Positions 7,789-64,000 of a DNA stretch of 64,000 nt are shown here, one piece after another. Both the position numbers and the translations under genes were made by a program. The notes under the pieces were generated by a model, which was not told the origin of the DNA, searched no databases, and was given only the letters and a program-made list of their open reading frames with translations. How positions within the stretch are numbered: the stretch's first letter is position 1; each line of letters opens with the position of its first letter. The DNA is from an uncultured Oscillospiraceae bacterium. GTDB taxonomy: Bacteria > Bacillota > Clostridia > Oscillospirales > Oscillospiraceae. The stretch is from NCBI GenBank assembly GCA_947630375.1, contig CANRHH010000008.1, positions 8,745-72,744 of the forward strand. The letters are read 5' to 3'.

Positions 7789-8538
7789 ATGGAAAGAATC
7801 AGTTCGAGACAAAACCCGTATATCCGCCAGCTGCGCGCTCTGGCCGCCGGCGGGGCGGCCCGCCGGGAGCAGGGGGAGTACCTCTGCGACGGGCGCAAAA
7901 TGCTGCGGGACGCGCTGGAGGCCGGGGCGGAGATCGTCTCCGTCCTCTGGAAGGAGCAGGCGGAGCCGGTGCCCGGCCTGGAGGGCGCGCGGCAGCTGGA
8001 GGCGGAGGCGGGGCTGTTTGACTATGCCTCGCCGCTGAAAAACAGCCCGGGCCCGCTGTTTACCGTGAAGATCCCGCCGGAGGACCGGCAGACGCCCCTT
8101 TCAAATGCGCTGATCCTGGAAAACGTGCAGGACCCGGGCAACGTGGGCACCGTCCTGCGCACCGCCAACGCCTTCGGCCTGGGGGCCGTGGTGCTGACGG
8201 GGGACTGCGCGGATCTGTACCAGCCCAAAACCGTCCGGGCCAGCATGGGGGCCATTTTCCGCCAGCGGGTGCTCCGGCTGGAGCGGCCGGAGCTGAAAGC
8301 ACTGCTGGCGCGAAACGGCCTGCCCCTGTACGGGGCGGCCCTGTCCCCCCTGGCGGTGGATCTGCGCCGGGTGGAGCTGAAGCGGGCGGCGGTGGCCGTG
8401 GGCAGCGAGGGCCGGGGCCTGAGTCCGGCGCTGCTCGCGCTGTGTGAAAAGGAGATCATCATCCCCATGGCGCCGGAGAGCGAATCGCTCAACGCGGCGG
8501 TGGCCGCGGCGCTGATCATGTGGGAGATGGCCAGATAA
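7789..8538 (+). CDS. TrmH/SpoU family RNA 2'-O-methyltransferase
   Basis: SpoU motifs are present: NVQDPGNVGTVLRTANAFG, GSEGRGLS and SLNAAVAAALIMWE. Confidence 0.85.
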   Translation: MERISSRQNPYIRQLRALAAGGAARREQGEYLCDGRKMLRDALEAGAEIVSVLWKEQAEPVPGLEGARQLEAEAGLFDYASPLKNSPGPLFTVKIPPEDRQTPLSNALILENVQDPGNVGTVLRTANAFGLGAVVLTGDCADLYQPKTVRASMGAIFRQRVLRLERPELKALLARNGLPLYGAALSPLAVDLRRVELKRAAVAVGSEGRGLSPALLALCEKEIIIPMAPESESLNAAVAAALIMWEMAR

Positions 8539-55989: not shown

Positions 55990-56036
55990 GTTTTCTGTTC
56001 TTCCCGTGTATAAAAGTAAATAGTTTTAGCTTTTAA

Positions 56037-56065
56037 AGTATAGTACAGGCCCCGGTAAATTGCAA
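56037..56065 (-). promoter_or_regulatory. Promoter of the acyl-CoA synthetase operon
   Basis: On the minus strand it reads TTGCAA, a 17-nt spacer, then TATACT. Confidence 0.6.
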
Positions 56066-56159
56066 CCTTGTTTTTTTGCCGGGATCTGTGATTTTTTCCC
56101 CGGCGGGACCGGCGTCGCCCGCGATCCCCGCCGGGGGAATTTTTTTATATGGTCTTCGC

Positions 56160-56188
56160 TTGACAAATCCCGGCAGACAAGGTATGCT
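56160..56188 (+). promoter_or_regulatory. Promoter of the mgtE leader
   Basis: TTGACA, a 17-nt spacer, then TATGCT. This leaves an untranslated leader of about 190 nt before mgtE. Confidence 0.6.
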
Positions 56189-56383
56189 GAACGTATGGCG
56201 GTTGCCAAATTTTATGAAACAGGAGGAGACGTCATGGACGGTGGAAGTAGCGGCGGCACATCAACAGGCCGAAGTTTTTTCGCGGAGCGCCAGGGTGCCT
56301 CCGCCTGCCAATTGCATCGCTGAGCTTTGGCCTGCGTGTCGGCTTCCAAATCTGGACGCGTTCCAAAAGAGGAGGAAAAACCG

Positions 56384-57760
56384 ATGGCAGAATACAATGC
56401 GCTTTTAAAGAAGACTTTGAAGACCCTGCTCGACGAAAAGAAGTACTCTACCCTGAAGGACGTTCTGGTGACCATGAATCCGGCGGACGTAGCCGCCGTC
56501 TTCGAGGAATTGGGGGAGGAGCGGGTCCCGCTGCTGTTCCGGCTGCTGCCTAAGGAGCTGGCGGCGGAGTGCTTCGTGGAGATGGAGCCGGACCGGCAGG
56601 AGCTGCTGATCCGGGGCTTCTCCGATCTGGAGCTGAGGGACCTGATCGGCGAGCTGTATGTAGACGACGCCGCGGACCTGGTGGAGGAGATGCCCGCCAA
56701 CGTGGTCAAGCGGATCCTCTCCCAGGCGGACCCCCAGACCCGCCGGGAGATCAACCAGATCCTACGCTATCCCGAGAACTCCGCCGGCTCCATCATGACC
56801 ACCGAGTATGTCTCCCTCCGGCCGGCCATGACCGTAGCGGAGGCCATTGCCCGCATCCGTAAGACAGGGGTGGACAAGGAGACGATCTACACCTGCTACA
56901 TCACCGAGGACCGGCGGCTTTTAGGCTTCGTGACGGTCAAGGATCTGCTGCTGACCGAGAACGACGACACGCCCGTCTCCGAGGTGATGGATGAGAACGT
57001 GATCTCCGTGAGCACCATGGCCGACCAGGAAGAGGTGGCCCAGATGCTCTCCCGGTACAACTTCCTGGCCCTGCCCGTGGTGGATACCGACGGGCGGATG
57101 GTGGGCATCGTCACCTTTGACGACGCGATGGATGTCCTGGAGGAAGAGACCACCGAGGATATGGAGCTCATGGCGGGCATCACGCCCACGGAAAAGCCCT
57201 ATCTGCGCTCCAACGCCTGGGAGCTTTTCAAGCACCGCATCCCCTGGCTGTGCCTGCTGATGGTGTCGGCCACCTTTACGGGGATGATCATCACCGGTTT
57301 CGAGAGCGCGCTGGCGGCCCAGGTGATCCTGACGGCTTTTATCCCCATGCTGATGGATACCGGCGGCAACTCCGGCTCCCAGTCCTCGGTCACGGTGATC
57401 CGGGCCCTGTCCCTGGGGGAGCTGGCGTTTAAGGACCTGCCCGCGGTCATCTGGAAGGAGATCCAGACGGCGGTGCTGTGCGGGACCGCGCTGGCGGTGC
57501 TGTGCTTTGCCAAGATCATGCTGGTGGACAAGCTGCTGCTGGGCAACCTGGATATCACGGTCATGACAGCGCTGGTGGTGTGCTTTACCATGGCGGTGAC
57601 GGTGCTGGTGGCCAAGGTGATCGGCTGCACGCTGCCCATGTGCGCCAAGAGGCTGGGCTTTGACCCGGCGGTGATGGCCAGCCCCTTTATCACCACCATG
57701 GTGGACGCTCTGTCCCTGCTGGTCTATTTCGGCGTGGCCCAGGCCCTGTTATTCCACTGA
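56384..57760 (+). CDS. mgtE: Magnesium transporter MgtE
   Basis: It has the MgtE N-domain, tandem CBS domains and a 5-TM channel domain (PMLMDTGGNSGSQS). The ATG at 56384 follows GAGGAGGA. Confidence 0.95.
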   Translation: MAEYNALLKKTLKTLLDEKKYSTLKDVLVTMNPADVAAVFEELGEERVPLLFRLLPKELAAECFVEMEPDRQELLIRGFSDLELRDLIGELYVDDAADLVEEMPANVVKRILSQADPQTRREINQILRYPENSAGSIMTTEYVSLRPAMTVAEAIARIRKTGVDKETIYTCYITEDRRLLGFVTVKDLLLTENDDTPVSEVMDENVISVSTMADQEEVAQMLSRYNFLALPVVDTDGRMVGIVTFDDAMDVLEEETTEDMELMAGITPTEKPYLRSNAWELFKHRIPWLCLLMVSATFTGMIITGFESALAAQVILTAFIPMLMDTGGNSGSQSSVTVIRALSLGELAFKDLPAVIWKEIQTAVLCGTALAVLCFAKIMLVDKLLLGNLDITVMTALVVCFTMAVTVLVAKVIGCTLPMCAKRLGFDPAVMASPFITTMVDALSLLVYFGVAQALLFH

Positions 57761-57775
57761 AAAGATTTTTCTGAA

Positions 57776-57814
57776 GCCTCAAAAAAGCGGCCGAAAGGCC
57801 GCTTTTTTTGAGGC
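57776..57814 (+). terminator. mgtE terminator
   Basis: GCCTCAAAAAAGCGGCC-GAAA-GGCCGCTTTTTTTGAGGC. Confidence 0.85.
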
Positions 57815-57836
57815 TTGAGTAGACCTTAATAAATAC

Positions 57837-57880
57837 ACGTAAAAATACGTACATTTATCTTGACATACGTAAAAATACGT
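57837..57880 (+). promoter_or_regulatory. Two copies of the palindromic 14-mer ACGTAAAAATACGT flanking the -35 of the hicAB promoter (candidate HicB operators)
   Basis: There are exact copies at 57837..57850 and 57867..57880. Each is an ACGTA-N4-TACGT palindrome. Confidence 0.65.
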
Positions 57881-57888
57881 GCTACAAT
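57860..57888 (+). promoter_or_regulatory. hicAB promoter
   Basis: TTGACA, a 17-nt spacer, then TACAAT. Confidence 0.7.
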
Positions 57889-57917
57889 GAGGCCGTAATA
57901 GAGATAAAGAGGGTGAT

Positions 57918-58106
57918 CTGATCAAGTATTCAGAGCTGGAAAAGATACTAAAGCAAGCGGGCTGTACCGTGAGAAGAGAAGGAAAATCGCATACACTATG
58001 GTATAGCCCTAAGACTGGAAAGGTGTTCACAGTAGGCCGGCACAAGACGCAGGATGTGCCGGTCGGAACGTTAAAGTCGATTAAAGTGAGCGCAGGGCTT
58101 GAATAA
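57918..58106 (+). CDS. hicA: HicA mRNA-interferase toxin (no canonical start codon in frame)
   Basis: The hand translation is (L)IKYSELEKILKQAGCTVRREGKSHTLWYSPKTGKVFTVGRHKTQDVPVGTLKSIKVSAGLE. The frame is closed by a TGA at 57888..57890. Only CTG 57918 or ATC 57921 follow the AAGAGGGTGA RBS. Confidence 0.7.
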   Translation: MIKYSELEKILKQAGCTVRREGKSHTLWYSPKTGKVFTVGRHKTQDVPVGTLKSIKVSAGLE

Positions 58107-58138
58107 AGCCCAAACTCTCCCGCAAATAAAGGAGGAAA

Positions 58139-58531
58139 ATGGTGATGAAGTATTTGTACCCTGCCGTGTTCAAGAAGGAAGAAGGCGGTTACAGCGTTAT
58201 CTTCCCGGACCTGGACATTGCCACTTCCGGGGAAACGCTGGAAGAGGCCATGGATATGGCGAAGGATGCTTTGTGTTTAATGCTCTATGATCTGGAAGAA
58301 AGAAAGCAGCCTGTTCCCGCCGCATCGGACATGAGAAAACTGTCATGCCCGGACGACGCCTTTTTGAGCCTTGTTGCCTGTGACACGATGGAGTACCGGC
58401 GTTTTTACAGCAGCAAGGCCGTGAAGAAAACGCTGAGCATTCCGGCATGGCTGAACACGATGGCCGAGAAAGAGGATATCAATTTCTCGGCAGTGCTGCA
58501 AAAGGCGCTGAAGGCAGAGTTGCGGCTCTGA
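58139..58531 (+). CDS. hicB: HicB antitoxin with a C-terminal ribbon-helix-helix-like tail
   Basis: KYLYPAVFKKEEGGYSVIFPDLDIATSGETLEEAMDMAKDAL is the typical HicB RNase-H-like fold. It lies downstream of hicA. Confidence 0.85.
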   Translation: MVMKYLYPAVFKKEEGGYSVIFPDLDIATSGETLEEAMDMAKDALCLMLYDLEERKQPVPAASDMRKLSCPDDAFLSLVACDTMEYRRFYSSKAVKKTLSIPAWLNTMAEKEDINFSAVLQKALKAELRL

Positions 58532-58698
58532 GTCCCACGGCCGCCTAAAATTTGGGAGTATGCCCGCCTGCGGATTTCGTGGGGCGAGGGCGAGAGGGGA
58601 TGGGATTCCCCTCTCGCAAAATTGAGCGAAGCGGATCATACGCTGCGAAGCGGCGCCGCAAAAAAAGGCCCATCCACGAAGTGGACGGGCCTTTTTTG

Positions 58699-58719
58699 TG
58701 GTGCTCCAGCGGGGATTCG
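58699..58719. repeat. att-type direct repeat copy 1 (TGGTGCTCCAGCGGGGATTCG)
   Basis: It is a 21-nt exact duplicate of 58849..58869. It is the reverse complement of a tRNA acceptor/CCA end and is preceded by the hairpin terminator at 58660..58697. Confidence 0.75.
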
Positions 58720-58848
58720 CCCGCCTGCGGGCGGGCCGGGTCGCGGGGCAAACGTGCCACTGGCACGTTTGCTAACACCGCTCCCTTCGAATCCCCCGCT
58801 TCCGCACATGAAAAAATCCTGCACCCGCTATGCGGGTACAGGATTTTT

Positions 58849-58869
58849 TGGTGCTCCAGCGGGGATTCG
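58849..58869. repeat. att-type direct repeat copy 2 (TGGTGCTCCAGCGGGGATTCG)
   Basis: It is an exact copy, preceded by the hairpin terminator at 58811..58849 and adjacent to the integrase gene. Confidence 0.75.
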
Positions 58870-58895
58870 AACCCCGGACACCCTGCTTAAAAGGG
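58849..58895 (-). other. 3' fragment of a tRNA gene (T-arm, acceptor 3' strand, encoded CCA); not a complete tRNA
   Basis: The minus strand reads ...GTGTC-CGGGG-TTCGAAT-CCCCG-CTGGAGC-A-CCA. Upstream sequence lacks a D-arm and a properly paired anticodon arm. Confidence 0.7.
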
Positions 58896-58938
58896 ATGTG
58901 GGGGAAAATGGGGAAATTGCTTAGAGCGCGTAAGAAAA

Positions 58939-60147
58939 TCAGGTTCTTTGTGCTTGGCCGTTACCCCTTTGCTTACCCCCAAAGGCAGCAGAGACGGCCT
59001 TCACCGTGTCGCTGGGGCGGTTGGCCATGAGATGGGTGTAGACGTTGAGCGTCAGGTTGGCGGTGGCGTGACCGGCCAAGTATTGCACCGTCTTGATGTC
59101 GGCCCCGGACATCACCAGCTCCGTGATGTAAGTGTGCCGCAATTGATGCGGGGTCACCTTAAAATCAAGGGAGATCTCCACCCCATGATTACGGATCCGG
59201 TCACCGAGCTGGAGCATCTTGCGATATGGCTTGCCGTTTTCCATGCCTTGGATCTCCCGGACGCTGCGAACCCGGATCGCGTCCCAGGCCCGACGAAAGG
59301 ATGTGGCGCTCATGGGCCTGCCTTTCTGGTCAGGGACCACATAGAGGTTTTTGCTTTTCGTCTTTTCCTTCTCCAGCAGCTCCACCAGCGGCTCTGGGAT
59401 GGGGATGTCCCGCTTCGCCGCACGGCTTTTTAAGGCATCGTCCACGATGGGCTTGTTTTTCCCTTCCCATCGCAGAGCCCGCCGCACGGAGATGTATGGC
59501 GGGACGGCGTCAAGGAAAACACAATCCCATTGCAGGGCAAGGATCTCTTCCCGCCGAAGCCCCGCATAGAGAGCAAGGGCGGCGATCAGGCCCGCCTTCG
59601 TCCCGGACAGCGCGTCCATGAGGCGCCGCTGCTGTTCCGCCGTCAAGGGGATCTTTTCGGCCGATGCCTTTCCCGCCGCCTTCAGGTCCCGGCAAGGGGA
59701 CCGGGCAATCAAATCATTGTTTTCCGCCGCGGCGAAGATCCTCTTTAGTGTAGTGACAATTTTTTGCTGTGAGGATTTGGACAGGTGCGCGGCAGCGGCC
59801 ATGACGGCCTGGATGTCATCCGGCGTTATGCTCCGGAGGGGGCGGGGGCCGATGATGGGGCAGATGTGATTATTGATCGCATTGCGGTAATCCTCTTTTC
59901 GCTTTGCGCTGAGACCCTCGGCATTCAGCGCGTACCAGCGGGCGGCGTACTGATAGATAAGGGGATCCTCCGCCGTCTGCCGGGTGCGGCTGAGCTGGAG
60001 CTGCCGGGCTTTGACCTTTTCCCTCAGCTCCGGTTTGGTCTTGCCGTAGACATCGACCCAGCGGCCGCTGTTTTCGTCTTTGATGCGCTTACGGTAGAGC
60101 CTGGTCTTTTCGCTATACGAAAATTCCGGGGCGTTTTTTCGCGGCAT
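58939..60147 (-). CDS. Tyrosine-type site-specific integrase
   Basis: The catalytic region is HQLRHTYITELV...LAGHATANLTLNVYTH (R..H..R..Y pattern). The ATG at 60147 follows AAAGGAGGAAAA. Confidence 0.92.
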   Translation of the reverse strand: MPRKNAPEFSYSEKTRLYRKRIKDENSGRWVDVYGKTKPELREKVKARQLQLSRTRQTAEDPLIYQYAARWYALNAEGLSAKRKEDYRNAINNHICPIIGPRPLRSITPDDIQAVMAAAAHLSKSSQQKIVTTLKRIFAAAENNDLIARSPCRDLKAAGKASAEKIPLTAEQQRRLMDALSGTKAGLIAALALYAGLRREEILALQWDCVFLDAVPPYISVRRALRWEGKNKPIVDDALKSRAAKRDIPIPEPLVELLEKEKTKSKNLYVVPDQKGRPMSATSFRRAWDAIRVRSVREIQGMENGKPYRKMLQLGDRIRNHGVEISLDFKVTPHQLRHTYITELVMSGADIKTVQYLAGHATANLTLNVYTHLMANRPSDTVKAVSAAFGGKQRGNGQAQRT

Positions 60148-60300
60148 TTTTCCTCCTTTTCTCTTGCGCCCCGGCCCGCGGTGTGCTAAGATAAAAGGGC
60201 AGACCAAGGCCTTGGTTTTGATCGACGGGGTTTTTCTGCGTGGCCGGCTTGAGCTTCCACCTTCAAGCCGGCCTTTTTTGTGTCCAAATCGGACACGGGG

Positions 60301-60597
60301 TCAGGCTTTCTTCAGTTCAGCCACGTCCTGGGCCAGGGTCCGGACGACGGTCTTCAGAAAGACGACCTCATCCTCCAGGGCCTCCACCCGGCTTTTGGGG
60401 GCCAGGGTCTCCAGAATAGTCTGCTGCCCTTCGGCCAGCAGCTGAAGCTGGGGCTGGATGGCGGACTCATAGAAGGCCATCCAGCGGTCCTCCGCGGCGT
60501 TGATCTCGGCGCGGACGGCGCCGATCTCGCCATGGGTGCGGCTCTCCGAGTCCGTAAGCAGCTTCTGAATGGCCTGTAGATCTTTGTCTTCCAGCAT
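60301..60597 (-). CDS. 98-aa all-helical/coiled-coil protein (unknown function), second gene of the int-proximal operon
   Basis: The ATG at 60597 follows GAGAGGAGA. The protein begins MLEDKDLQAIQKLLTDSESRTHGEIGAVRAEI. Its composition is normal. Confidence 0.55.
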   Translation of the reverse strand: MLEDKDLQAIQKLLTDSESRTHGEIGAVRAEINAAEDRWMAFYESAIQPQLQLLAEGQQTILETLAPKSRVEALEDEVVFLKTVVRTLAQDVAELKKA

Positions 60598-60637
60598 AAT
60601 GGTCTCCTCTCTTTCTGTGTCCGAAGTGGACACGGGG

Positions 60638-61378
60638 TTATTCTATATCTTTACTGTAGACGACGGTCACGTCAGCGCGGTATATGTAGTCCGCCGCGCT
60701 CCGGGGACGGTCGTCAAATTCGTCGTTATCCTCCGGGCGGAAGCGCTCAACATCCAAGCGGGCCGAGGTGAGGCGGTCCACAACATCCAGAAAGGCTTGG
60801 ACCTGGGGCGCGGGCACGTTGCCGATGCCCATGTCGTTATAGGTGATAAGGACAGCGTCTTTTCCCTTATAATCGTAGGACTCAAAGCCAATGGTCCCTT
60901 CTCCGTCGTTTGCCAGGGCTTCTTTCAGGACCCGCTGTCGACTGCTGCCGTCATCGTTATCATAGGTGACACCGGCGACCCGAAAGCGCAGACGGCCGTG
61001 GGTTCGTTCAAACTCGGCCTGCCGGGCGGATGCCTCCTTGCGATCATTTTCTATCTTTTCCTTTAATTCGGCAATCTCTTTTTCCGTTTTGGCTGCTTTT
61101 TCCTGAAGTTCAGCTTGCTTCTCTTTTAGTCGGTGGATGCGCTCAGCTTTTTCTGCTTCCGCTTTCTGCCGAGCAGCCTCACGCGCCTTCCCCTGCCGGT
61201 GAAAATTCAGTGTATAGCTGACAGCCCACCACACGACCAGAGCAAAGACAATGATGCCGACGATCAAGCCTCCAAGATTTCCCTGCCACCATGCATTTGA
61301 AATCAGGGTCATGGGCAGTACAAGGAGCACGATCCGCAAGGCCACGCCCCAAATTGTATAGGTTTTATCGTTTTTCAT
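60638..61378 (-). CDS. Membrane-anchored coiled-coil protein with a C-terminal HIRAN-like domain
   Basis: It has two N-terminal TM helices, a Lys/Glu/Ala coiled coil, then RFRVAGVTYDNDDG...IGNVPAPQVQAFL, which resembles HIRAN. The ATG at 61378 follows AGAGGAGAG. Confidence 0.65.
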   Translation of the reverse strand: MKNDKTYTIWGVALRIVLLVLPMTLISNAWWQGNLGGLIVGIIVFALVVWWAVSYTLNFHRQGKAREAARQKAEAEKAERIHRLKEKQAELQEKAAKTEKEIAELKEKIENDRKEASARQAEFERTHGRLRFRVAGVTYDNDDGSSRQRVLKEALANDGEGTIGFESYDYKGKDAVLITYNDMGIGNVPAPQVQAFLDVVDRLTSARLDVERFRPEDNDEFDDRPRSAADYIYRADVTVVYSKDIE

Positions 61379-61411
61379 CCATTTCTCTCCTCTATCCAAA
61401 ATCTACGTAGA

Positions 61412-61792
61412 TTATATTGCCGACTCGCCGTCTGATTCGGGAGGGCCGGCCTTGTATTCGTCCATGGCATTTAGCCCGCGGGCATCTACCAAAAGATGCT
61501 GCTGGCCAGCATCGTTTAAATTGTGGTATATAGTATCAATTTCTTCAAACCTTTTGTCCTTGCCATTTACTGGTGAGGATTTTTTTTCATTCTCCGGCAT
61601 TCCGTTCAAATACTCCAGAGAAACGCCAAGGCCATCAGACAATTTAAAAGCTACGTCAAGGGATACCTTGTTTTGCTTGCGGACGACAATGCCTCTGATC
61701 GTCGAGTCGGCTACACCTGAAAGCCGGGCAACGTCAGCCACAGTCAAATTTCTTTCCTGCATTATGGAACTAAGCACACGGTAAATCTCCAT
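61412..61792 (-). CDS. XRE-family HTH repressor (phage cI-like)
   Basis: The HTH reads LTVADVARLSGVADSTIRGIV. The ATG at 61792 follows GGAGGA. It is divergent from a Cro-like gene. Confidence 0.85.
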   Translation of the reverse strand: MEIYRVLSSIMQERNLTVADVARLSGVADSTIRGIVVRKQNKVSLDVAFKLSDGLGVSLEYLNGMPENEKKSSPVNGKDKRFEEIDTIYHNLNDAGQQHLLVDARGLNAMDEYKAGPPESDGESAI

Positions 61793-61865
61793 CAAATTTT
61801 CCTCCGCTGTAAACATATCATAACACGCATTATCGCGCATTGCAAGATTTTTTTCACGCAAAGTA

Positions 61866-61894
61866 TTGACAAATCTTTTATTGAGTGATTAAAT
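61866..61894 (+). promoter_or_regulatory. Rightward (Cro-side) promoter of the switch region
   Basis: TTGACA, a 17-nt spacer, then TTAAAT. Confidence 0.55.
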
Positions 61895-61938
61895 TAAGAG
61901 GAAATCACGCAATGCGCGATTTTTAAGGGGGTGTTTTT

Positions 61939-62160
61939 TTGAAACCAAACGGGATAGTTTACTCTAACCTTCGCGCAGAGATGAGTCGGACTAATATCGG
62001 CATAAAGGATATCGCCAAGGCTTGCGATTTTAACCGGGACACTCTCGCAAGAAAACTTGCGAAGAAATCTCCGCTTTACCTTGACGAGGCATTTAAAATT
62101 CAGCAGGCATTTTTCCCGGACAAAGAGCTCCGGTATCTTTTCGATTGTGCTGCTGAGTAA
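61939..62160 (+). CDS. Small XRE/Cro-like HTH protein
   Basis: The 73-aa protein contains IGIKDIAKACDFNRDTLARKLAKKSPLYLDEAF. It has a TTG start after AAGGGGG. Confidence 0.7.
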   Translation: MKPNGIVYSNLRAEMSRTNIGIKDIAKACDFNRDTLARKLAKKSPLYLDEAFKIQQAFFPDKELRYLFDCAAE

Positions 62161-62203
62161 CCCGCCCCGCATCGGCGGGGCGTATGAAAGGAGGTGGAAG
62201 AGC

Positions 62204-62311
62204 GTGGGAGGCAAAAACACGGACCGGCTTATTACCTTCAGCATCGTCACCAGCACTGCCCTTATTCTGCTGAACCTTCTGAGGCTGTTGAGGATCTTTG
62301 GCCTCACTTAA
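62204..62311 (+). CDS. Candidate 35-aa single-TM peptide (P1)
   Basis: The GTG follows GAAAGGAGGTGG. The translation is VGGKNTDRLITFSIVTSTALILLNLLRLLRIFGLT. The leader (hairpin plus SD) is duplicated at 62641..62684. Confidence 0.35.
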   Translation: MGGKNTDRLITFSIVTSTALILLNLLRLLRIFGLT

Positions 62312-62612
62312 AAAAGGTAAAAAGCAGCATTGATATTTCAACAAAGATTGCAATGGTTGAAAGCAGCGCCCCATAAGTTGCCCTCTGCTCTGTGCGCTTC
62401 ATCATCCGATATGCTTCAAACTCTTCCTGACCTGCGGGGCTCAGGGTCACAACGGTGTCTGCCTCAAAGCGATAGTCCGAGAAGGACAGGCGGCCAGGCC
62501 CGGCAAGTTCCTGAAGCTGCTGATAGTTCTGGAGGTTTGCAGCCTTCATGATCGCGCCCAGCGTTTTATGGCGGAGGACAGTTTTACAGACCTTATAGCT
62601 TTTTGCAGTCAT
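62304..62612 (-). CDS. 102-aa protein with a soluble N-domain and a C-terminal TM anchor (unknown function)
   Basis: The RBS is GGAGG. The C-terminus ALLSTIAIFVEISMLLFTFFK is hydrophobic. The 3' end overlaps P1 by 8 nt. Confidence 0.55.
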   Translation of the reverse strand: MTAKSYKVCKTVLRHKTLGAIMKAANLQNYQQLQELAGPGRLSFSDYRFEADTVVTLSPAGQEEFEAYRMMKRTEQRATYGALLSTIAIFVEISMLLFTFFK

Positions 62613-62681
62613 AGCAGGACCTCCAGGGTTTAAATTACTTCACGCCGCCCATCGGCGGGTCATGTGAAAGGAGGGGAGACG

Positions 62682-62762
62682 GTGGACTATCTGAAAAAGC
62701 ATATCTTTGACATTGGCGTTTTGATCGTCGGGTTGGTCGCACTCATAAGAACGTTCTTATAA
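62682..62762 (+). CDS. Candidate 26-aa single-TM peptide (P2)
   Basis: The GTG follows GAAAGGAGGGGAG. The translation is VDYLKKHIFDIGVLIVGLVALIRTFL. Confidence 0.35.
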   Translation: MDYLKKHIFDIGVLIVGLVALIRTFL

Positions 62763-62793
62763 GGGCGATAGCTGAAGAAAGGGAGGGAAGACG

Positions 62794-62889
62794 GTGGGCA
62801 GAGATCCCTTATATGGCTGGCGCTTTGTGATCTGGTCGATGATCGGCGGCATTGTGGGGACGGTCATAATTGCAGTTTGTTTCGGATAA
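62794..62889 (+). CDS. Candidate 31-aa single-TM peptide (P3)
   Basis: The GTG follows AAAGGGAGGGAAG. The translation is VGRDPLYGWRFVIWSMIGGIVGTVIIAVCFG. The 3' end overlaps the convergent gene by 26 nt. Confidence 0.3.
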   Translation: MGRDPLYGWRFVIWSMIGGIVGTVIIAVCFG

Positions 62890-63220
62890 AAGCGACCAGC
62901 ACGGAGACCGCAACGCCGGCTATAAAGCCATACAGCCGTTCCAGCCATTTGTCCCTCTCCTCCATGCGGCGGATCTCTTTGTAGGCCTTCCCGCCCTGGG
63001 TAAGGGAGGCCCCGGCGATGGCCCCGGAGGAATAGTAGGCCAGCTCAACAAGCGCCTTGTCCGCAAGGCCCTTCAAGATGCGGCGGGTTTCATCCTCTGC
63101 ATACCCAAAGGTTTGCTCAAGATATTCATATGTGTAGACGCGTTGCGGCCCGCCGGGGCCTCCGGCAATCAGGCGGTCCAGCATTCTTTTAGATTCTTTA
63201 TCCAGGTACACGGCCTGCAC
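62864..63220 (-). CDS. Winged-helix-like (YjcQ-like, tentative) protein with a C-terminal TM anchor
   Basis: It has the LDRLIAGG...YEYLEQTFGYAEDETRRILKGLADKALVE pattern and then the hydrophobic segment LYGFIAGVAVSVLVAFI. The start is GTG 63220 or GTG 63211. Confidence 0.55.
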   Translation of the reverse strand: MQAVYLDKESKRMLDRLIAGGPGGPQRVYTYEYLEQTFGYAEDETRRILKGLADKALVELAYYSSGAIAGASLTQGGKAYKEIRRMEERDKWLERLYGFIAGVAVSVLVAFIRNKLQL

Positions 63221-63326
63221 CCCCTTTCAGTTTATTGTATCACAGGGCCGGGAGCGGGCGCAAGGTAGCAGATTTACAGTATTTCGAGAAAAAGCCCAAA
63301 GAGGGCTACAGGGAAAGGAGGAAACC

Positions 63327-63656
63327 ATGCAGCGGAATACTATCAAGCTGACACGGAAGACGGCCCAGGCCATTGTGAAGCAGGAGTTGGGGATCTCCGG
63401 CGCGGCCCTGGTGCGGGAGGATACCCCGTCCTTTATGCAGCGGTACACCATGAAGCTGGGGGTGCTGGAGGTCACGGTGGATAACGGGGCCTATGAAAAC
63501 AACGGCTGCTTCCTGCTGAAGCTGGCCCACAATTTCCAGGGGGAGCTGCGTATCTACATAGACCCGAAGACCCTGGCCGAAAACGATGAGGCGGGGGACC
63601 GGTACAGGGCGGAGTGCCGCCGGGAGATGTGCGAGTGCTGCTTCAAGGGGGCGTGA
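63327..63656 (+). CDS. Hypothetical phage protein (109 aa)
   Basis: The RBS is AAAGGAGGAAACC. Composition is normal. The stop overlaps the start of the next gene. Confidence 0.55.
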   Translation: MQRNTIKLTRKTAQAIVKQELGISGAALVREDTPSFMQRYTMKLGVLEVTVDNGAYENNGCFLLKLAHNFQGELRIYIDPKTLAENDEAGDRYRAECRREMCECCFKGA

Positions 63657-63657
63657 C

Positions 63658-64000
63658 ATGGAGGATAAGGTGCGGAACGTGTGCCGGATCGCGCGGGCGG
63701 TGGCCGGGCAGACCCAGGAGCGCTGGGCAGAGTCCATCGACGTGAGCGTGGAGAGTGTGCGGCTCTATGAGAGCGGCCGGGTGATCCCGTCGGACGACGT
63801 GGTGACCCGGATGGCCGAAGTGTCCGGGCACCAGATCATATGCTACTGGCATCTGCTCAATAAAAGCCGGGTGGCGTCGTCTCTGCTGCCGGAGGTGGAG
63901 CAGCTGCCCTTAGAGCAGGCGGTGCTTCGGCTGCTGCGCCGGATGAAGAGCTTCTTTGACCGGCATCGGGACGATGCCTTGATGGAGATCGCCGAGGACG
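63658..64000 (+). CDS. HTH (XRE-like) phage regulatory protein; the 3' end lies outside the window
   Basis: The hand translation is MEDKVRNVCRIARAVAGQTQERWAESIDVSVESVRLYESGRVIPSDDVVTRMAEVSG... and runs open to the window edge. It is coupled to the previous gene (TGACATG). Confidence 0.65.
   Translation, partial: MEDKVRNVCRIARAVAGQTQERWAESIDVSVESVRLYESGRVIPSDDVVTRMAEVSGHQIICYWHLLNKSRVASSLLPEVEQLPLEQAVLRLLRRMKSFFDRHRDDALMEIAED

What the first reader, a model, noticed from the sequence alone, without database searches (positions are those of the whole stretch)
60280..61378. The int-cI moron operon encodes a membrane-anchored coiled-coil HIRAN-like protein and a 98-aa helical partner, each ORF followed by the same hairpin (candidate phage-defence or exclusion module)
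A two-gene minus-strand operon lies between the integrase and the cI-like repressor, the classical slot for lysogen-expressed defence and superinfection-exclusion genes. Gene 1 (60638..61378) has two TM helices and a ~65-aa Lys/Glu/Ala coiled coil. It then has a domain whose core (RFRVAGVTYDNDDG...KGKDAVLITYNDMGIGNVPAPQVQAFL) resembles HIRAN, a module known from HLTF/Rad5 to bind 3' DNA ends. I do not know of a characterised system with a HIRAN domain tethered to the membrane by a coiled-coil stalk. Gene 2 (60301..60597) is an all-helical 98-aa protein. Both stop codons are followed immediately by nearly the same element on the coding strand: A-CCCCGTGTCC-ACTTC-GGACAC (60617..60638) and A-CCCCGTGTCC-GATTT-GGACAC (60280..60301). 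This is a conserved 6-bp hairpin with a CCCC leader. It could be an RNA processing or stability site, or a protein-binding site. After the second copy comes a GC-rich hairpin (60242..60272) whose T-run is on the opposite strand, so termination of this operon is also atypical.
Basis: partly seen in the sequence, partly recalled or inferred. Interest (0 to 1): 0.65.

Follow-up and report, generated by a model that had tools for sequence, protein, structure and literature searches.

The report
Prophage exclusion-slot genes with boundary hairpins
Two unrelated accessory genes sit in the slot between a prophage's repressor and integrase; one is a membrane-anchored, distantly HIRAN-like protein that swaps places with a known superinfection-exclusion gene in sister phages, and the shared hairpin is a 17-bp palindrome that marks gene-cassette boundaries in this phage group.

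Summary
The interpretation needs revision.

- **Not a two-gene system.** Gene 1 and gene 2 occur together only in copies of this same prophage. Elsewhere each occurs alone.
- **Gene 1.** It has two TM helices, a variable coiled coil and a C-terminal domain. It belongs to a large unannotated family (about 1,100 clusters). In every lineage sampled it lies between a cI-type repressor and an integrase or recombinase. In one backbone that is 92-97% identical, it alternates with an Ltp superinfection-exclusion lipoprotein. HIRAN is the only Pfam family that matches, and always below threshold. No solved HIRAN structure is recovered.
- **Gene 2.** It is a free-standing two-helix moron (phrog_33872).
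- **The hairpin.** GTGTCC-N5-GGACAC is not specific to these genes. It follows cassettes of many kinds in related lysogeny operons. Homology between phages breaks at it. Four stem variants keep the pairing through compensatory changes.
- **The GC-rich hairpin.** It is an intrinsic terminator facing the antisense direction.

The most likely reading is a lysogen-expressed exclusion or defence candidate in a hairpin-delimited cassette slot. No function has been tested.

The parts
58939..60147 (-). Tyrosine integrase, the distal gene of the lysogeny operon
   Evidence: Pfam Phage_integrase E 8.6e-21 and phrog_1 E 1.8e-57. The ATG at 60145-60147 is preceded by AAAGGAGG.
60242..60279 (+). GC-rich stem-loop plus T6: an intrinsic terminator facing the + strand, antisense to the operon
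   Evidence: The terminator scan lists it on the + strand with 12 pairs followed by TTTTTT. Fold energies are given. On the coding strand it is preceded by A6 and has no U-tract.
60280..60300 (-). Palindrome copy 2: CCCC-GTGTCC-GATTT-GGACAC on the coding strand, directly after the gene 2 stop codon
   Evidence: The 6-bp stem appears in the minimum-energy fold. The homology block shared with L007 ends here.
60301..60597 (-). Gene 2: a 98-aa two-helix coiled-coil protein of the phrog_33872 family, an independent moron
   Evidence: phrog_33872 E 1.3e-15. 286 homologs. AF2 predicts two helices. No PDB fold match. Homologs sit in varied contexts.
60617..60637 (-). Palindrome copy 1: CCCC-GTGTCC-ACTTC-GGACAC on the coding strand, between the gene 1 stop codon and the gene 2 ribosome-binding site
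   Evidence: Fold energy is -9.5 kcal/mol. The homology block shared with L007 starts here.
60641..61003 (-). Gene 1 C-terminal domain (residues 126-246) with the motif AGVTYxNDDGSSRQ; a beta-rich, distantly HIRAN-like fold
   Evidence: 1,105 representative clusters at E<=1e-3. AF2 pLDDT 89.9. PF08797 matches only below threshold.
61004..61201 (-). Gene 1 Lys/Glu/Ala coiled-coil stalk (residues about 60-125), variable in length among homologs
   Evidence: Alignment A1 shows a 43-residue deletion or an extension in homologs. Only coiled-coil-type family hits are found.
61211..61354 (-). Gene 1 membrane anchor: two predicted TM helices (residues about 9-27 and 34-56). The charge distribution places the C-terminal domain in the cytoplasm.
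   Evidence: Hydropathy scan. The charge reading is mine from the sequence: the loop after TM2 carries five Lys/Arg and one His, while the loop between the helices carries none.
61412..61792 (-). cI-like HTH repressor, the first gene of the operon
   Evidence: Pfam HTH_3 E 5.7e-9. Divergent promoter-like sites lie at 61817-61895. Operator-like repeats at 61833-61919 differ from the GTGTCC palindrome.

Best explanation
The region is the variable accessory slot of the lysogeny operon (cI, accessory genes, int) of an Oscillospiraceae-type prophage. It holds two independent single-gene cassettes.

**Gene 1.** It belongs to a large unannotated family of membrane-anchored proteins. A coiled-coil stalk holds a cytoplasm-facing beta-rich domain against the inner face of the membrane. 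The domain is distantly HIRAN-like. It is most likely expressed in the lysogen together with the repressor. It most likely acts as a superinfection-exclusion or defence protein on nucleic acid entering the cell. It fills the same role in the genome as Ltp or Sie proteins. This function is inferred, not shown.

**Gene 2.** It is a small coiled-coil moron of unknown role. It is not a partner of gene 1.

**The hairpin.** The shared element is a 17-bp palindrome, GTGTCC-N5-GGACAC. In most copies it extends to 7 bp + 3 nt + 7 bp. In this phage lineage it follows each cassette and lies just upstream of the next ribosome-binding site. Compensatory changes maintain its pairing, and homology between phages breaks at it. 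I therefore read it as an intercistronic stem-loop, probably acting in RNA. It also serves as the short conserved joint at which cassettes are exchanged.

**The GC-rich hairpin upstream of int.** It is a terminator that stops transcription coming from the host side, antisense to the operon. Such transcription would otherwise run on into the lytic genes.
For: **Position of gene 1**
- Relatives lie directly between an HTH repressor and a tyrosine integrase (L001, L219-223) or a serine recombinase (L003-6, L224).
- In viral contigs, at least 20 of 43 have a recombinase downstream and 25 of 48 have a cI-like gene upstream, on the same strand. None has a recombinase elsewhere in the locus.

**Allelic replacement**
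- In the L440-L450 backbone the flanks are 92-97% identical. The slot holds either an Ltp lipoprotein (PF07553, E 5.9e-27; 10 loci in this backbone, plus the reference L432, which has a different integrase) or a TM plus HIRAN-like protein (L442, L447 and L449; L434 and L451, which also carry one, were not shown to share this backbone).
- Other cassettes in the slot target nucleic acids: RNase_T exonuclease, NYN, HSDR_N, and TM + coiled coil + T5orf172.

**Independence of gene 2**
-. In 80 viral loci, almost all gene 2 homologs appear to end with ordinary terminator-like GC-rich hairpins. Only one carries the intact palindrome and one a degenerate copy.

**The hairpin**
- It follows stop codons by 0-55 nt in L001, L007, L017, L018 and L023, downstream of cassettes of different kinds. 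In L022 no qualifying ORF end was found upstream.
- The arrangement stop, hairpin, SD-ATG is 20-fold enriched over random positions in viral contigs.
- The window-L007 homology block runs from hairpin to hairpin, within 3 nt at both ends in both sequences. The L001-L017 cI homology ends exactly at the hairpin.
- With only GTG...CAC fixed, 36 of 45 post-stop sites have all three inner pairs Watson-Crick, in four types: CCC/GGG, TCC/GGA, TTC/GAA and TCT/AGA. At stem position 4 there are 241 paired contexts against 6 unpaired.

**Antisense terminators**
-.
Against: - No function has been tested for any part.
- The HIRAN link is below threshold. No solved HIRAN structure is recovered, so nucleic-acid binding is only an inference.
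- PADLOC gives only a 22-bit match over the TM and coiled-coil region.
- The stem sequence is nearly invariant within a genome, the spacing is fixed at N5, and the loops show no strand bias. These features fit a dimeric DNA-binding protein as well as they fit an RNA hairpin. Palindromic protein sites would also change symmetrically.
- Lineage structure inflates the covariation counts.
- Many viral-contig matches to the palindrome lie in what looks like coding sequence and may be chance.
- Transcription of the operon from the cI promoter through int is inferred only from the absence of a minus-strand terminator.
Confidence: 0.55

Rival explanations
1. Genes 1 and 2 form one two-component defence system, and the shared hairpins are processing or stability sites specific to that system.
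For: The two genes are adjacent and co-oriented. Only 40 nt separate them, and each is followed by the same CCCC-led hairpin.
Against: The pair occurs only in copies of this same prophage (L217, L218). All other gene 1 relatives lack gene 2. Gene 2 relatives occur next to other cassettes, or alone in tail or other regions. The hairpin follows unrelated genes in other phages. PADLOC has no model for either gene.
Confidence: 0.07
2. The 17-bp palindrome is a double-stranded DNA site for a dimeric phage or host protein. It would be comparable to the 17-bp dyad repeats of Cluster O mycobacteriophages or to stoperators. The hairpin-forming potential would then be incidental.
For: The half-sites are sequence-conserved, with few one-mismatch variants. 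Spacing is a strict N5 in all 21 copies found with a pattern that allowed N3-7. Most loops extend the palindrome to 7+3+7. Copies within one genome share the same variant. The loops show no strand bias (my tally). The Cluster O repeats have the same 7+3+7 geometry, and their authors predict a dimeric binder (PMC4351075).
Against: Four different stem variants all keep their pairing, which would require repeated changes in the protein's specificity. Some copies are extended by non-conserved complementary flanks into real terminators, which argues that the sequence does fold. The sites lie inside operons, between a stop codon and the next ribosome-binding site, not at promoters. They differ from the operator-like repeats between cI and cro. 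No candidate binding protein was identified.
Confidence: 0.25
3. The palindromes in the lysogeny operon are weak intrinsic terminators that face the antisense direction. Like the GC-rich hairpin at 60242-60279, they would insulate the repressor region and lytic genes from transcription entering at the int end.
For: On the + strand both window copies extend by G-U pairs with the GGGG run and are followed by U-rich sequence. The scan calls 60613-60637 a + strand terminator. In L001 and L007 the copies are preceded on the coding strand by A-tracts. Other lineages have unrelated hairpins with an upstream A-tract at the same post-stop positions.
Against: Copies in structural operons of other phages lack such tracts. 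The stems are short, -9.5 to -13.7 kcal/mol, and the z-scores are modest. This model does not explain why the stem sequence is conserved.
Confidence: 0.15
4. The gene 1 C-terminal domain is not functionally HIRAN-like. It would bind a protein or a small molecule. The family would then serve lysogeny itself, for example by sensing or controlling induction, rather than exclusion.
For: The family's invariant motif GVTFxNxDGxSRQ has no counterpart that I know of in HIRAN (with my knowledge of the HLTF sequence). Neither sequence nor fold searches recover a solved HIRAN structure. All database names are 'hypothetical protein'.
Against: HIRAN is the only Pfam family matched, and the match is in the right register. 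One family member is fused to the DNA-binding FtsK_gamma domain. The gene is allelic with Ltp and sits beside cassettes that target nucleic acids.
Confidence: 0.3

Closest known systems
Superinfection-exclusion genes of Gram-positive temperate phages (Ltp of S. thermophilus TP-J34; Sie2009 of lactococcal P335 phages)
   Same: They lie between the repressor and the integrase in the lysogeny module, are membrane-associated, and are expressed in the lysogen. Here a Pfam Ltp gene and the gene 1 family alternate in the same slot of one phage backbone (PMC3952083 for Ltp).
   Different: There is no sequence similarity. Ltp is a surface-exposed lipoprotein, whereas gene 1 has two TM helices and a domain predicted to face the cytoplasm. 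No exclusion phenotype has been shown.
[quoted passage not shown]
   Same: The described architecture and the location in the lysogeny module are the same.
   Different: The paper only names the gene and reports no function. No relative of the gene 1 domain was found in the 50,697 deposited phage records.
HIRAN domain of HLTF/Rad5 (Pfam PF08797)
   Same: The strand-helix order is similar: b1, b2-b4, helix, b5, b6. The core PAI-V...G..IGN.P resembles NAI-V...G..VGH. PF08797 is the only Pfam family matched.
   Different: All scores are below the Pfam cut-off. There is an extra helix and a family-specific NxDGxSRQ loop after b1. Foldseek gives no match to the solved HLTF HIRAN structures. Binding of DNA 3' ends is untested.
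PeSL motifs of T4-type phages (PMC2839356, PMC4122927)
   Same: Both are short conserved stem-loop motifs at the borders of variable genes, and insertions and replacements between related phages start and end at them.
   Different: PeSLs combine an early promoter with a terminator stem-loop. The palindrome here is 17 bp, has no promoter, and sits inside a polycistronic lysogeny operon.
17-bp dyad-symmetric repeats of Cluster O mycobacteriophages (PMC4351075)
   Same: The geometry is the same, a 7-bp inverted repeat with a 3-bp spacer. The arms are invariant, the centre is variable and A/T-rich, the sites are mostly intergenic, and the function is unknown.
   Different: The sequence, host phylum and phage lifestyle differ. 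The authors state that the Cluster O repeats are rarely involved in rearrangements, whereas here homology breaks at the palindrome. The copy number per genome is unknown here.
Integron gene cassettes with attC sites
   Same: Both are arrays of promoterless genes. Each gene is followed by a palindromic element, the array lies next to a tyrosine recombinase gene, and it is read from one upstream promoter.
   Different: attC sites are 57-141 bp imperfect palindromes with defined boxes, recombined as folded single strands by IntI. Here the element is a 17-bp perfect palindrome, the integrase is an ordinary phage type, and it sits at the distal end in the same orientation. Site-specific recombination is not indicated.

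Membership tests
HIRAN domain (Pfam PF08797) | Sequence match to the family profile above its gathering score (24.7 bits) | tested here: not met
   The window domain has no hit at E<=10. Family consensus sequences score 12.3 and 17 bits. Among members the best E-values are 0.011 and 0.0013. None of the 120 homologs listed (170 found) has a precomputed Pfam domain.
HIRAN domain (Pfam PF08797) | Fold superposable on solved HIRAN structures (HLTF 4S0N/4XZF, Rad5 6L8N) | tested here: inconclusive
   The AF2 model has pLDDT 89.9. Foldseek against the PDB finds nothing at E<=1e-3. Rad5 appears at E 1.3-1.6 with TMq 0.27-0.34, and HLTF is not in the top 50. A phage protein annotated as HIRAN matches at E 0.017 with TMq 0.51.
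HIRAN domain (Pfam PF08797) | Pocket that binds a free DNA 3'-OH end | not testable with these tools
   This needs binding assays or a reliable residue-level superposition.
Prophage superinfection-exclusion genes of the lysogeny module (Ltp/Sie type) | Encoded between repressor and integrase, on the repressor's strand | tested here: met
   Seen in the window and in all sampled lineages.
Prophage superinfection-exclusion genes of the lysogeny module (Ltp/Sie type) | Membrane-associated protein | tested here: met
   Gene 1 has two predicted TM helices. One or two occur in most family members.
Prophage superinfection-exclusion genes of the lysogeny module (Ltp/Sie type) | Sequence homology to Ltp (PF07553) or another known Sie family | tested here: not met
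   Pfam, PHROGs, NCBIfam and PADLOC give no such hit. The only link is positional alternation with Ltp.
Prophage superinfection-exclusion genes of the lysogeny module (Ltp/Sie type) | Blocks infection or DNA entry by other phages | not testable with these tools
   This needs phage challenge of a clone or a lysogen.
Two-gene defence system (PADLOC-type) | Both genes conserved together across genomes | tested here: not met
   The pair co-occurs only in L217 and L218, which are the same prophage. Elsewhere the genes are separate.
Two-gene defence system (PADLOC-type) | Match to a known defence-system protein model | tested here: not met
   Gene 1 gives only LeoBC at 22 bits, over the TM and coiled-coil region. 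Gene 2 gives nothing.
Intrinsic (Rho-independent) terminator of the operon | GC-rich stem followed by a U-tract on the transcribed strand | tested here: not met
   No minus-strand terminator-like site lies between cI and int. The sites at 60242-60273 and 60613-60637 score only on the + strand.
PeSL-like boundary motifs | A conserved motif lies at the ends of segments that differ between related phages | tested here: met
   Shown for window vs L007 and for L001 vs L017, and for the L440/L442/L449 backbone.
PeSL-like boundary motifs | The motif carries a promoter together with a terminator stem-loop | tested here: not met
   No promoter-like site lies at either copy. The element is only 17 bp long.
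Integron attC site | Imperfect palindrome of 57-141 bp with conserved boxes, next to an IntI-type integrase | tested here: not met
   The element is a 17-bp perfect palindrome. The integrase matches ordinary phage integrase families. IntI-specific features were not examined.
Structured RNA family in Rfam | Match to a curated covariance model | tested here: not met
   An Rfam scan of 56000-64000 at E<=1 gives nothing at 60200-60700.

The most novel reading that the evidence does not exclude
The repressor-integrase slot of these gut Clostridia prophages is a hairpin-delimited cassette array. The conserved 17-bp palindromes would be the actual exchange points, through short homology or a dedicated factor, at which prophages swap exclusion and defence genes. 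One common cargo would be a membrane-tethered HIRAN-like protein that captures the ends of incoming DNA at the inner face of the membrane.
Probability: 0.25. Interest if true: 0.75.

Novelty: new variant of a known kind. Interest (0 to 1): 0.5.

Why it matters
- **A large uncharacterised candidate family.** Gene 1 belongs to about 1,100 sequence clusters, all labelled hypothetical. The family holds a fixed place in the lysogeny module of many Firmicutes prophages and trades places with a known exclusion gene. If it blocks incoming DNA from the cytoplasmic side of the membrane, that would be a new exclusion mechanism. It would also be a direct experimental handle on phage resistance in gut Clostridia.
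- **A practical marker for accessory cargo.** The boundary palindrome locates variable cargo in these prophages. It is also a testable case of how short conserved stem-loops shape phage mosaicism.
- **Limits.** None of this is shown functionally. Both ideas have precedents: Sie genes and thaL for the protein, and PeSLs and the Cluster O repeats for the palindrome.

Tried and rejected
**Searches that gave nothing useful**
- Pfam, PHROGs, PADLOC and NCBIfam on both genes gave only coiled-coil or composition hits: spanin, TolA, SMC and LeoBC. I rejected the spanin reading because the gene is not in a lysis cassette.
- Profile searches of the PDB with A2 and A3 found no HIRAN.
- hhalign of A3 against the HLTF HIRAN sequence aligned the expected core, but at 2.5% probability.
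- tblastn of the domain against deposited phage genomes found nothing.
- Foldseek of gene 2 against the PDB found nothing.
- Cluster look-ups returned only 'hypothetical protein'.
- A full-text search for the palindrome sequence found no paper.

**Tests of the hairpin that were uninformative**
- Testing RNA against DNA by G-U versus A-C mismatches failed. Only 6 one-mismatch variants lay upstream of genes.
- The loop strand-bias test was confounded by related copies. The GAAAC:GTTTC ratio of 7:1 comes mostly from one gene family.
- A six-frame 'inside an ORF' test did not discriminate in this GC-rich DNA.

**Ideas tested and rejected**
- The CCCC leader is not a general feature.
- The hairpin does not travel with gene 2 or with gene 1 (3 copies in 513 kb).

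**Not possible**
- More of this prophage could not be fetched. Only contigs of 3-4 kb carry gene 1.
Full report
**1. Observation**

The minus strand carries four genes in this order:
- a cI-like HTH repressor, 61412..61792;
- gene 1, 60638..61378 (246 aa);
- gene 2, 60301..60597 (98 aa);
- a tyrosine integrase, 58939..60147.

The integrase is followed by two remnants of a tRNA 3' end, so this is the attL end of a prophage.

CCCCGTGTCC-N5-GGACAC occurs exactly twice in the 64 kb. Each copy begins right after a stop codon, and 0.05 copies are expected by chance. The core GTGTCC-N3-7-GGACAC gives 2 matches against 0.00 expected. The GC-rich stem-loop at 60242-60273 has its T-run on the + strand.

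**2. Gene 1**

The protein has two hydrophobic helices (residues about 9-27 and 34-56), a Lys/Glu/Ala helical stretch, and a C-terminal domain.
- The loop after the second helix is rich in Lys and Arg, while the loop between the helices is uncharged. The C-terminal domain should therefore face the cytoplasm. This is my inference from the positive-inside rule.
- Close homologs are few (9), and their coiled coil varies in length.
- A profile of the C-terminal domain finds 1,105 representative clusters at E<=1e-3. Most are proteins of 160-250 aa with one or two N-terminal TM segments, a linker, and the domain at the C-terminus.
- The invariant or near-invariant residues define the motif GVT[FY]xNxDGxSRQ, followed by PA..V and G..IGN.P.
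- None of the 120 homologs listed (170 found) has a precomputed Pfam domain, and those with a name are called hypothetical protein.

**3. Is the domain HIRAN?**

Evidence for a remote relationship:
- PF08797 is the most frequent sub-threshold hit among members. It hits 6 of 51 (best E 0.011) and 7 of 82 (best E 0.0013).
- It is the only Pfam family hit by two family consensus sequences, at 12.3 and 17 bits against a cut-off of 24.7.
- An AlphaFold model built on 51 sequences is confident (pLDDT 89.9). Its order of elements is b1, loop plus helix, b2-b4, helix, b5, b6. This matches the HIRAN order with one inserted helix, as far as I know the HLTF structure.
- Against predicted viral structures, the model matches family members (E 8e-9) and a protein annotated as HIRAN (E 0.017, TMq 0.51).
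- hhalign against the HLTF HIRAN sequence aligns the expected core, but at only 2.5% probability.

Evidence against:
- The window domain has no Pfam hit at E<=10.
- Profiles find no solved HIRAN structure.
- Foldseek against the PDB finds nothing at E<=1e-3. Rad5 appears only at E 1.3-1.6, and HLTF is not in the top 50.

I conclude that the domain is a distinct family, probably a remote relative of HIRAN (about two chances in three). It is not a demonstrated member.

**4. Where the family lives**

In every lineage looked up, the gene lies directly between a cI-type repressor and the recombinase, on the same strand.
- Tyrosine integrase: L001, L219-223.
- Serine recombinase: L003-6, L224.

In viral contigs, at least 20 of 43 loci have a recombinase downstream and 25 of 48 have a cI-like gene upstream. 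These are lower bounds from a small query set. No locus has a recombinase anywhere else.

The strongest clue comes from the L440-L450 group, whose flanks are 92-97% identical. There the slot holds either a 290-aa Lipoprotein_Ltp protein (PF07553, E 5.9e-27; 10 loci in this backbone, plus the reference L432, which has a different integrase) or a TM plus HIRAN-like protein (L442, L447 and L449; L434 and L451, which also carry one, were not shown to share this backbone). Ltp is the prototype of a superinfection-exclusion lipoprotein family (PMC3952083).

Related phages carry other cargo in the slot:
- RNase_T exonuclease with BRCT;
- NYN;
- HSDR_N;
- a TM + coiled coil + T5orf172 protein;
- DUF4352.

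[quoted passage not shown] No function is reported for it (PMC12637031).

**5. Gene 2**

- It matches phrog_33872, a family of unknown function, and has more than 286 homologs.
- The N-terminus and C-terminal half are conserved, and the middle is a variable repeat region.
- It is predicted as two long helices and has no PDB fold match.
- Homologs lie next to an integrase after different cargo (L007-9), beside a bPH_1 gene (L010-12), or alone on the opposite strand between tail genes and a giant MuF protein (L013-16).
- Gene 1 relatives lack it.

The pair is therefore a chance neighbourhood of two cassettes, not a system.

**6. The hairpin**

*Distribution.* The same GTGTCC-N5-GGACAC follows other genes in the lysogeny operons of related prophages:
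- four copies in L007, after cI, after DUF4352, after the exonuclease pair, and after the gene 2 homolog;
- two copies in L001, after cI and after the gene 1 homolog;
- further copies in L017, L018 and L022-24.

The copies start 0-55 nt after a stop codon, mostly 0-8 nt, and usually lie a few bases upstream of the next ribosome-binding site. In L022 no qualifying ORF end was found upstream.

The loops GATTC and GAATC, which extend the palindrome to 7+3+7, are strongly over-represented. The copies lie between genes of all kinds, including structural genes. The arrangement stop, hairpin, SD-ATG on one strand is 20-fold enriched over random positions.

The element does not travel with gene 2 or with gene 1. 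Only 1-2 of 80 gene 2 loci carry it, and there are only 3 copies in 513 kb of gene 1 family loci.

*Cassette boundaries.* Homology between phages breaks at the hairpin.
- The window-L007 block (87% identity) runs from hairpin to hairpin, within 3 nt at both ends in both sequences.
- The L001-L017 cI block ends exactly at the hairpin.
- In the L440 group the variable slot lies between two such hairpins.

*Pairing is conserved.*
- A large sister group uses GTGCCC...GGGCAC at the same positions.
- At stem position 4 there are 206 T/A and 35 C/G contexts, against 6 unpaired.
- With only GTG...CAC fixed, 36 of 45 post-stop sites have all three inner pairs Watson-Crick, in four types. The shuffle mean is 19 and the maximum 28.
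- Lineage structure inflates these counts, and a palindromic protein site would also change symmetrically.

No Rfam family matches and no paper contains the sequence.

**7. Mechanism of the hairpin**

I favour an intercistronic stem-loop that acts in RNA, either as an end-protecting or processing element or as a weak attenuator. It would also act as the short conserved joint at which cassettes recombine, as described for PeSL motifs in T4-type phages (PMC2839356, PMC4122927).

A dimeric DNA-binding protein remains a serious rival. The arms are invariant, the spacing is fixed, copies within a genome are uniform, and the geometry is that of the Cluster O 17-bp repeats (PMC4351075).

A third reading is that the copies are antisense-facing weak terminators.
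- On the + strand, both window copies extend through G-U pairs with the GGGG run and are followed by U-rich sequence.
- In other lineages, unrelated hairpins with an upstream A-tract occupy the same post-stop positions.

The element at 60242-60279 is clearly an antisense-facing terminator. The operon probably reads on into int, while transcription entering from the host side is stopped.

**8. Verdict**

- Gene 1 is a credible but untested exclusion or defence candidate from a large unannotated family.
- The HIRAN label is only a lead.
- Gene 2 is not a partner of gene 1.
- The hairpin is a lineage-wide cassette-boundary palindrome, not a feature of this pair.

The novelty is moderate. The locus is a new variant of known kinds: Sie-slot morons, and boundary stem-loops in phages.

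Noticed in passing
window 58661-58869: There are two direct copies (96% identical, 150 nt apart) of TTTTKTGGTGCTCCAGCGGGGATTCG, the reverse complement of a tRNA 3' end. Each is preceded by a terminator-like inverted repeat with A/T runs on both sides. The window contains no intact tRNA. These look like attL-type remnants, perhaps of two successive integrations.
   Followed up: partly
window 61400-61413: A perfect 14-bp palindrome, AATCTACGTAGATT, overlaps the cI stop codon just upstream of gene 1 and is unique in the window. Related TACGTA palindromes lie about 60 nt upstream of int in L017, L019 and L020. It may be a regulatory site.
   Followed up: partly
window 60148-60279 (+ strand): The antisense-facing terminator could end a short + strand RNA that overlaps the int leader. 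A possible extended -10 element (TGcTAAGAT) lies at about 60178-60188. This was read by eye, and the promoter scan did not flag it.
   Followed up: no
L023 3985-5694; L159 (reverse strand, near 8243): Other cargo in the same slot shares the plan of membrane anchor, long coiled coil and a nucleic-acid-related domain. L023 has a 569-aa TM + coiled coil + DUF4041/T5orf172 protein. L159 has an S24 repressor, then the palindrome, then a 260-aa TM/coiled-coil protein with a LAGTSY motif.
   Followed up: partly
L432-L453, L471, L481: A sister phage group carries the compensated variant GTGCCC-N5-GGGCAC at three fixed places: after a 181-aa TM protein downstream of the repressor, just upstream of int, and 13 nt after a 60-aa ORF 2-4 kb beyond int.
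   Followed up: partly
P0130-P0278 (family members): Some members fuse the domain to FtsK_gamma (E 2.2e-20), TM2 or DUF4236, or carry it in tandem.
   Followed up: no
window 58139-58531 (+), 57969-58106 (+): Two small ORFs that look like a HicA/HicB toxin-antitoxin pair lie on the host side next to attL and are transcribed towards the prophage. This rests on reading the ORF translations only. NCBIfam gave no hit for the larger ORF.
   Followed up: no
L100, L110, L120, L156, L206, L208, L211: In several viral contigs the same 17-bp palindrome forms the top of a longer, ordinary two-way terminator (AAAAGCC-palindrome-GGCTTTTCT) after one conserved gene.
   Followed up: no
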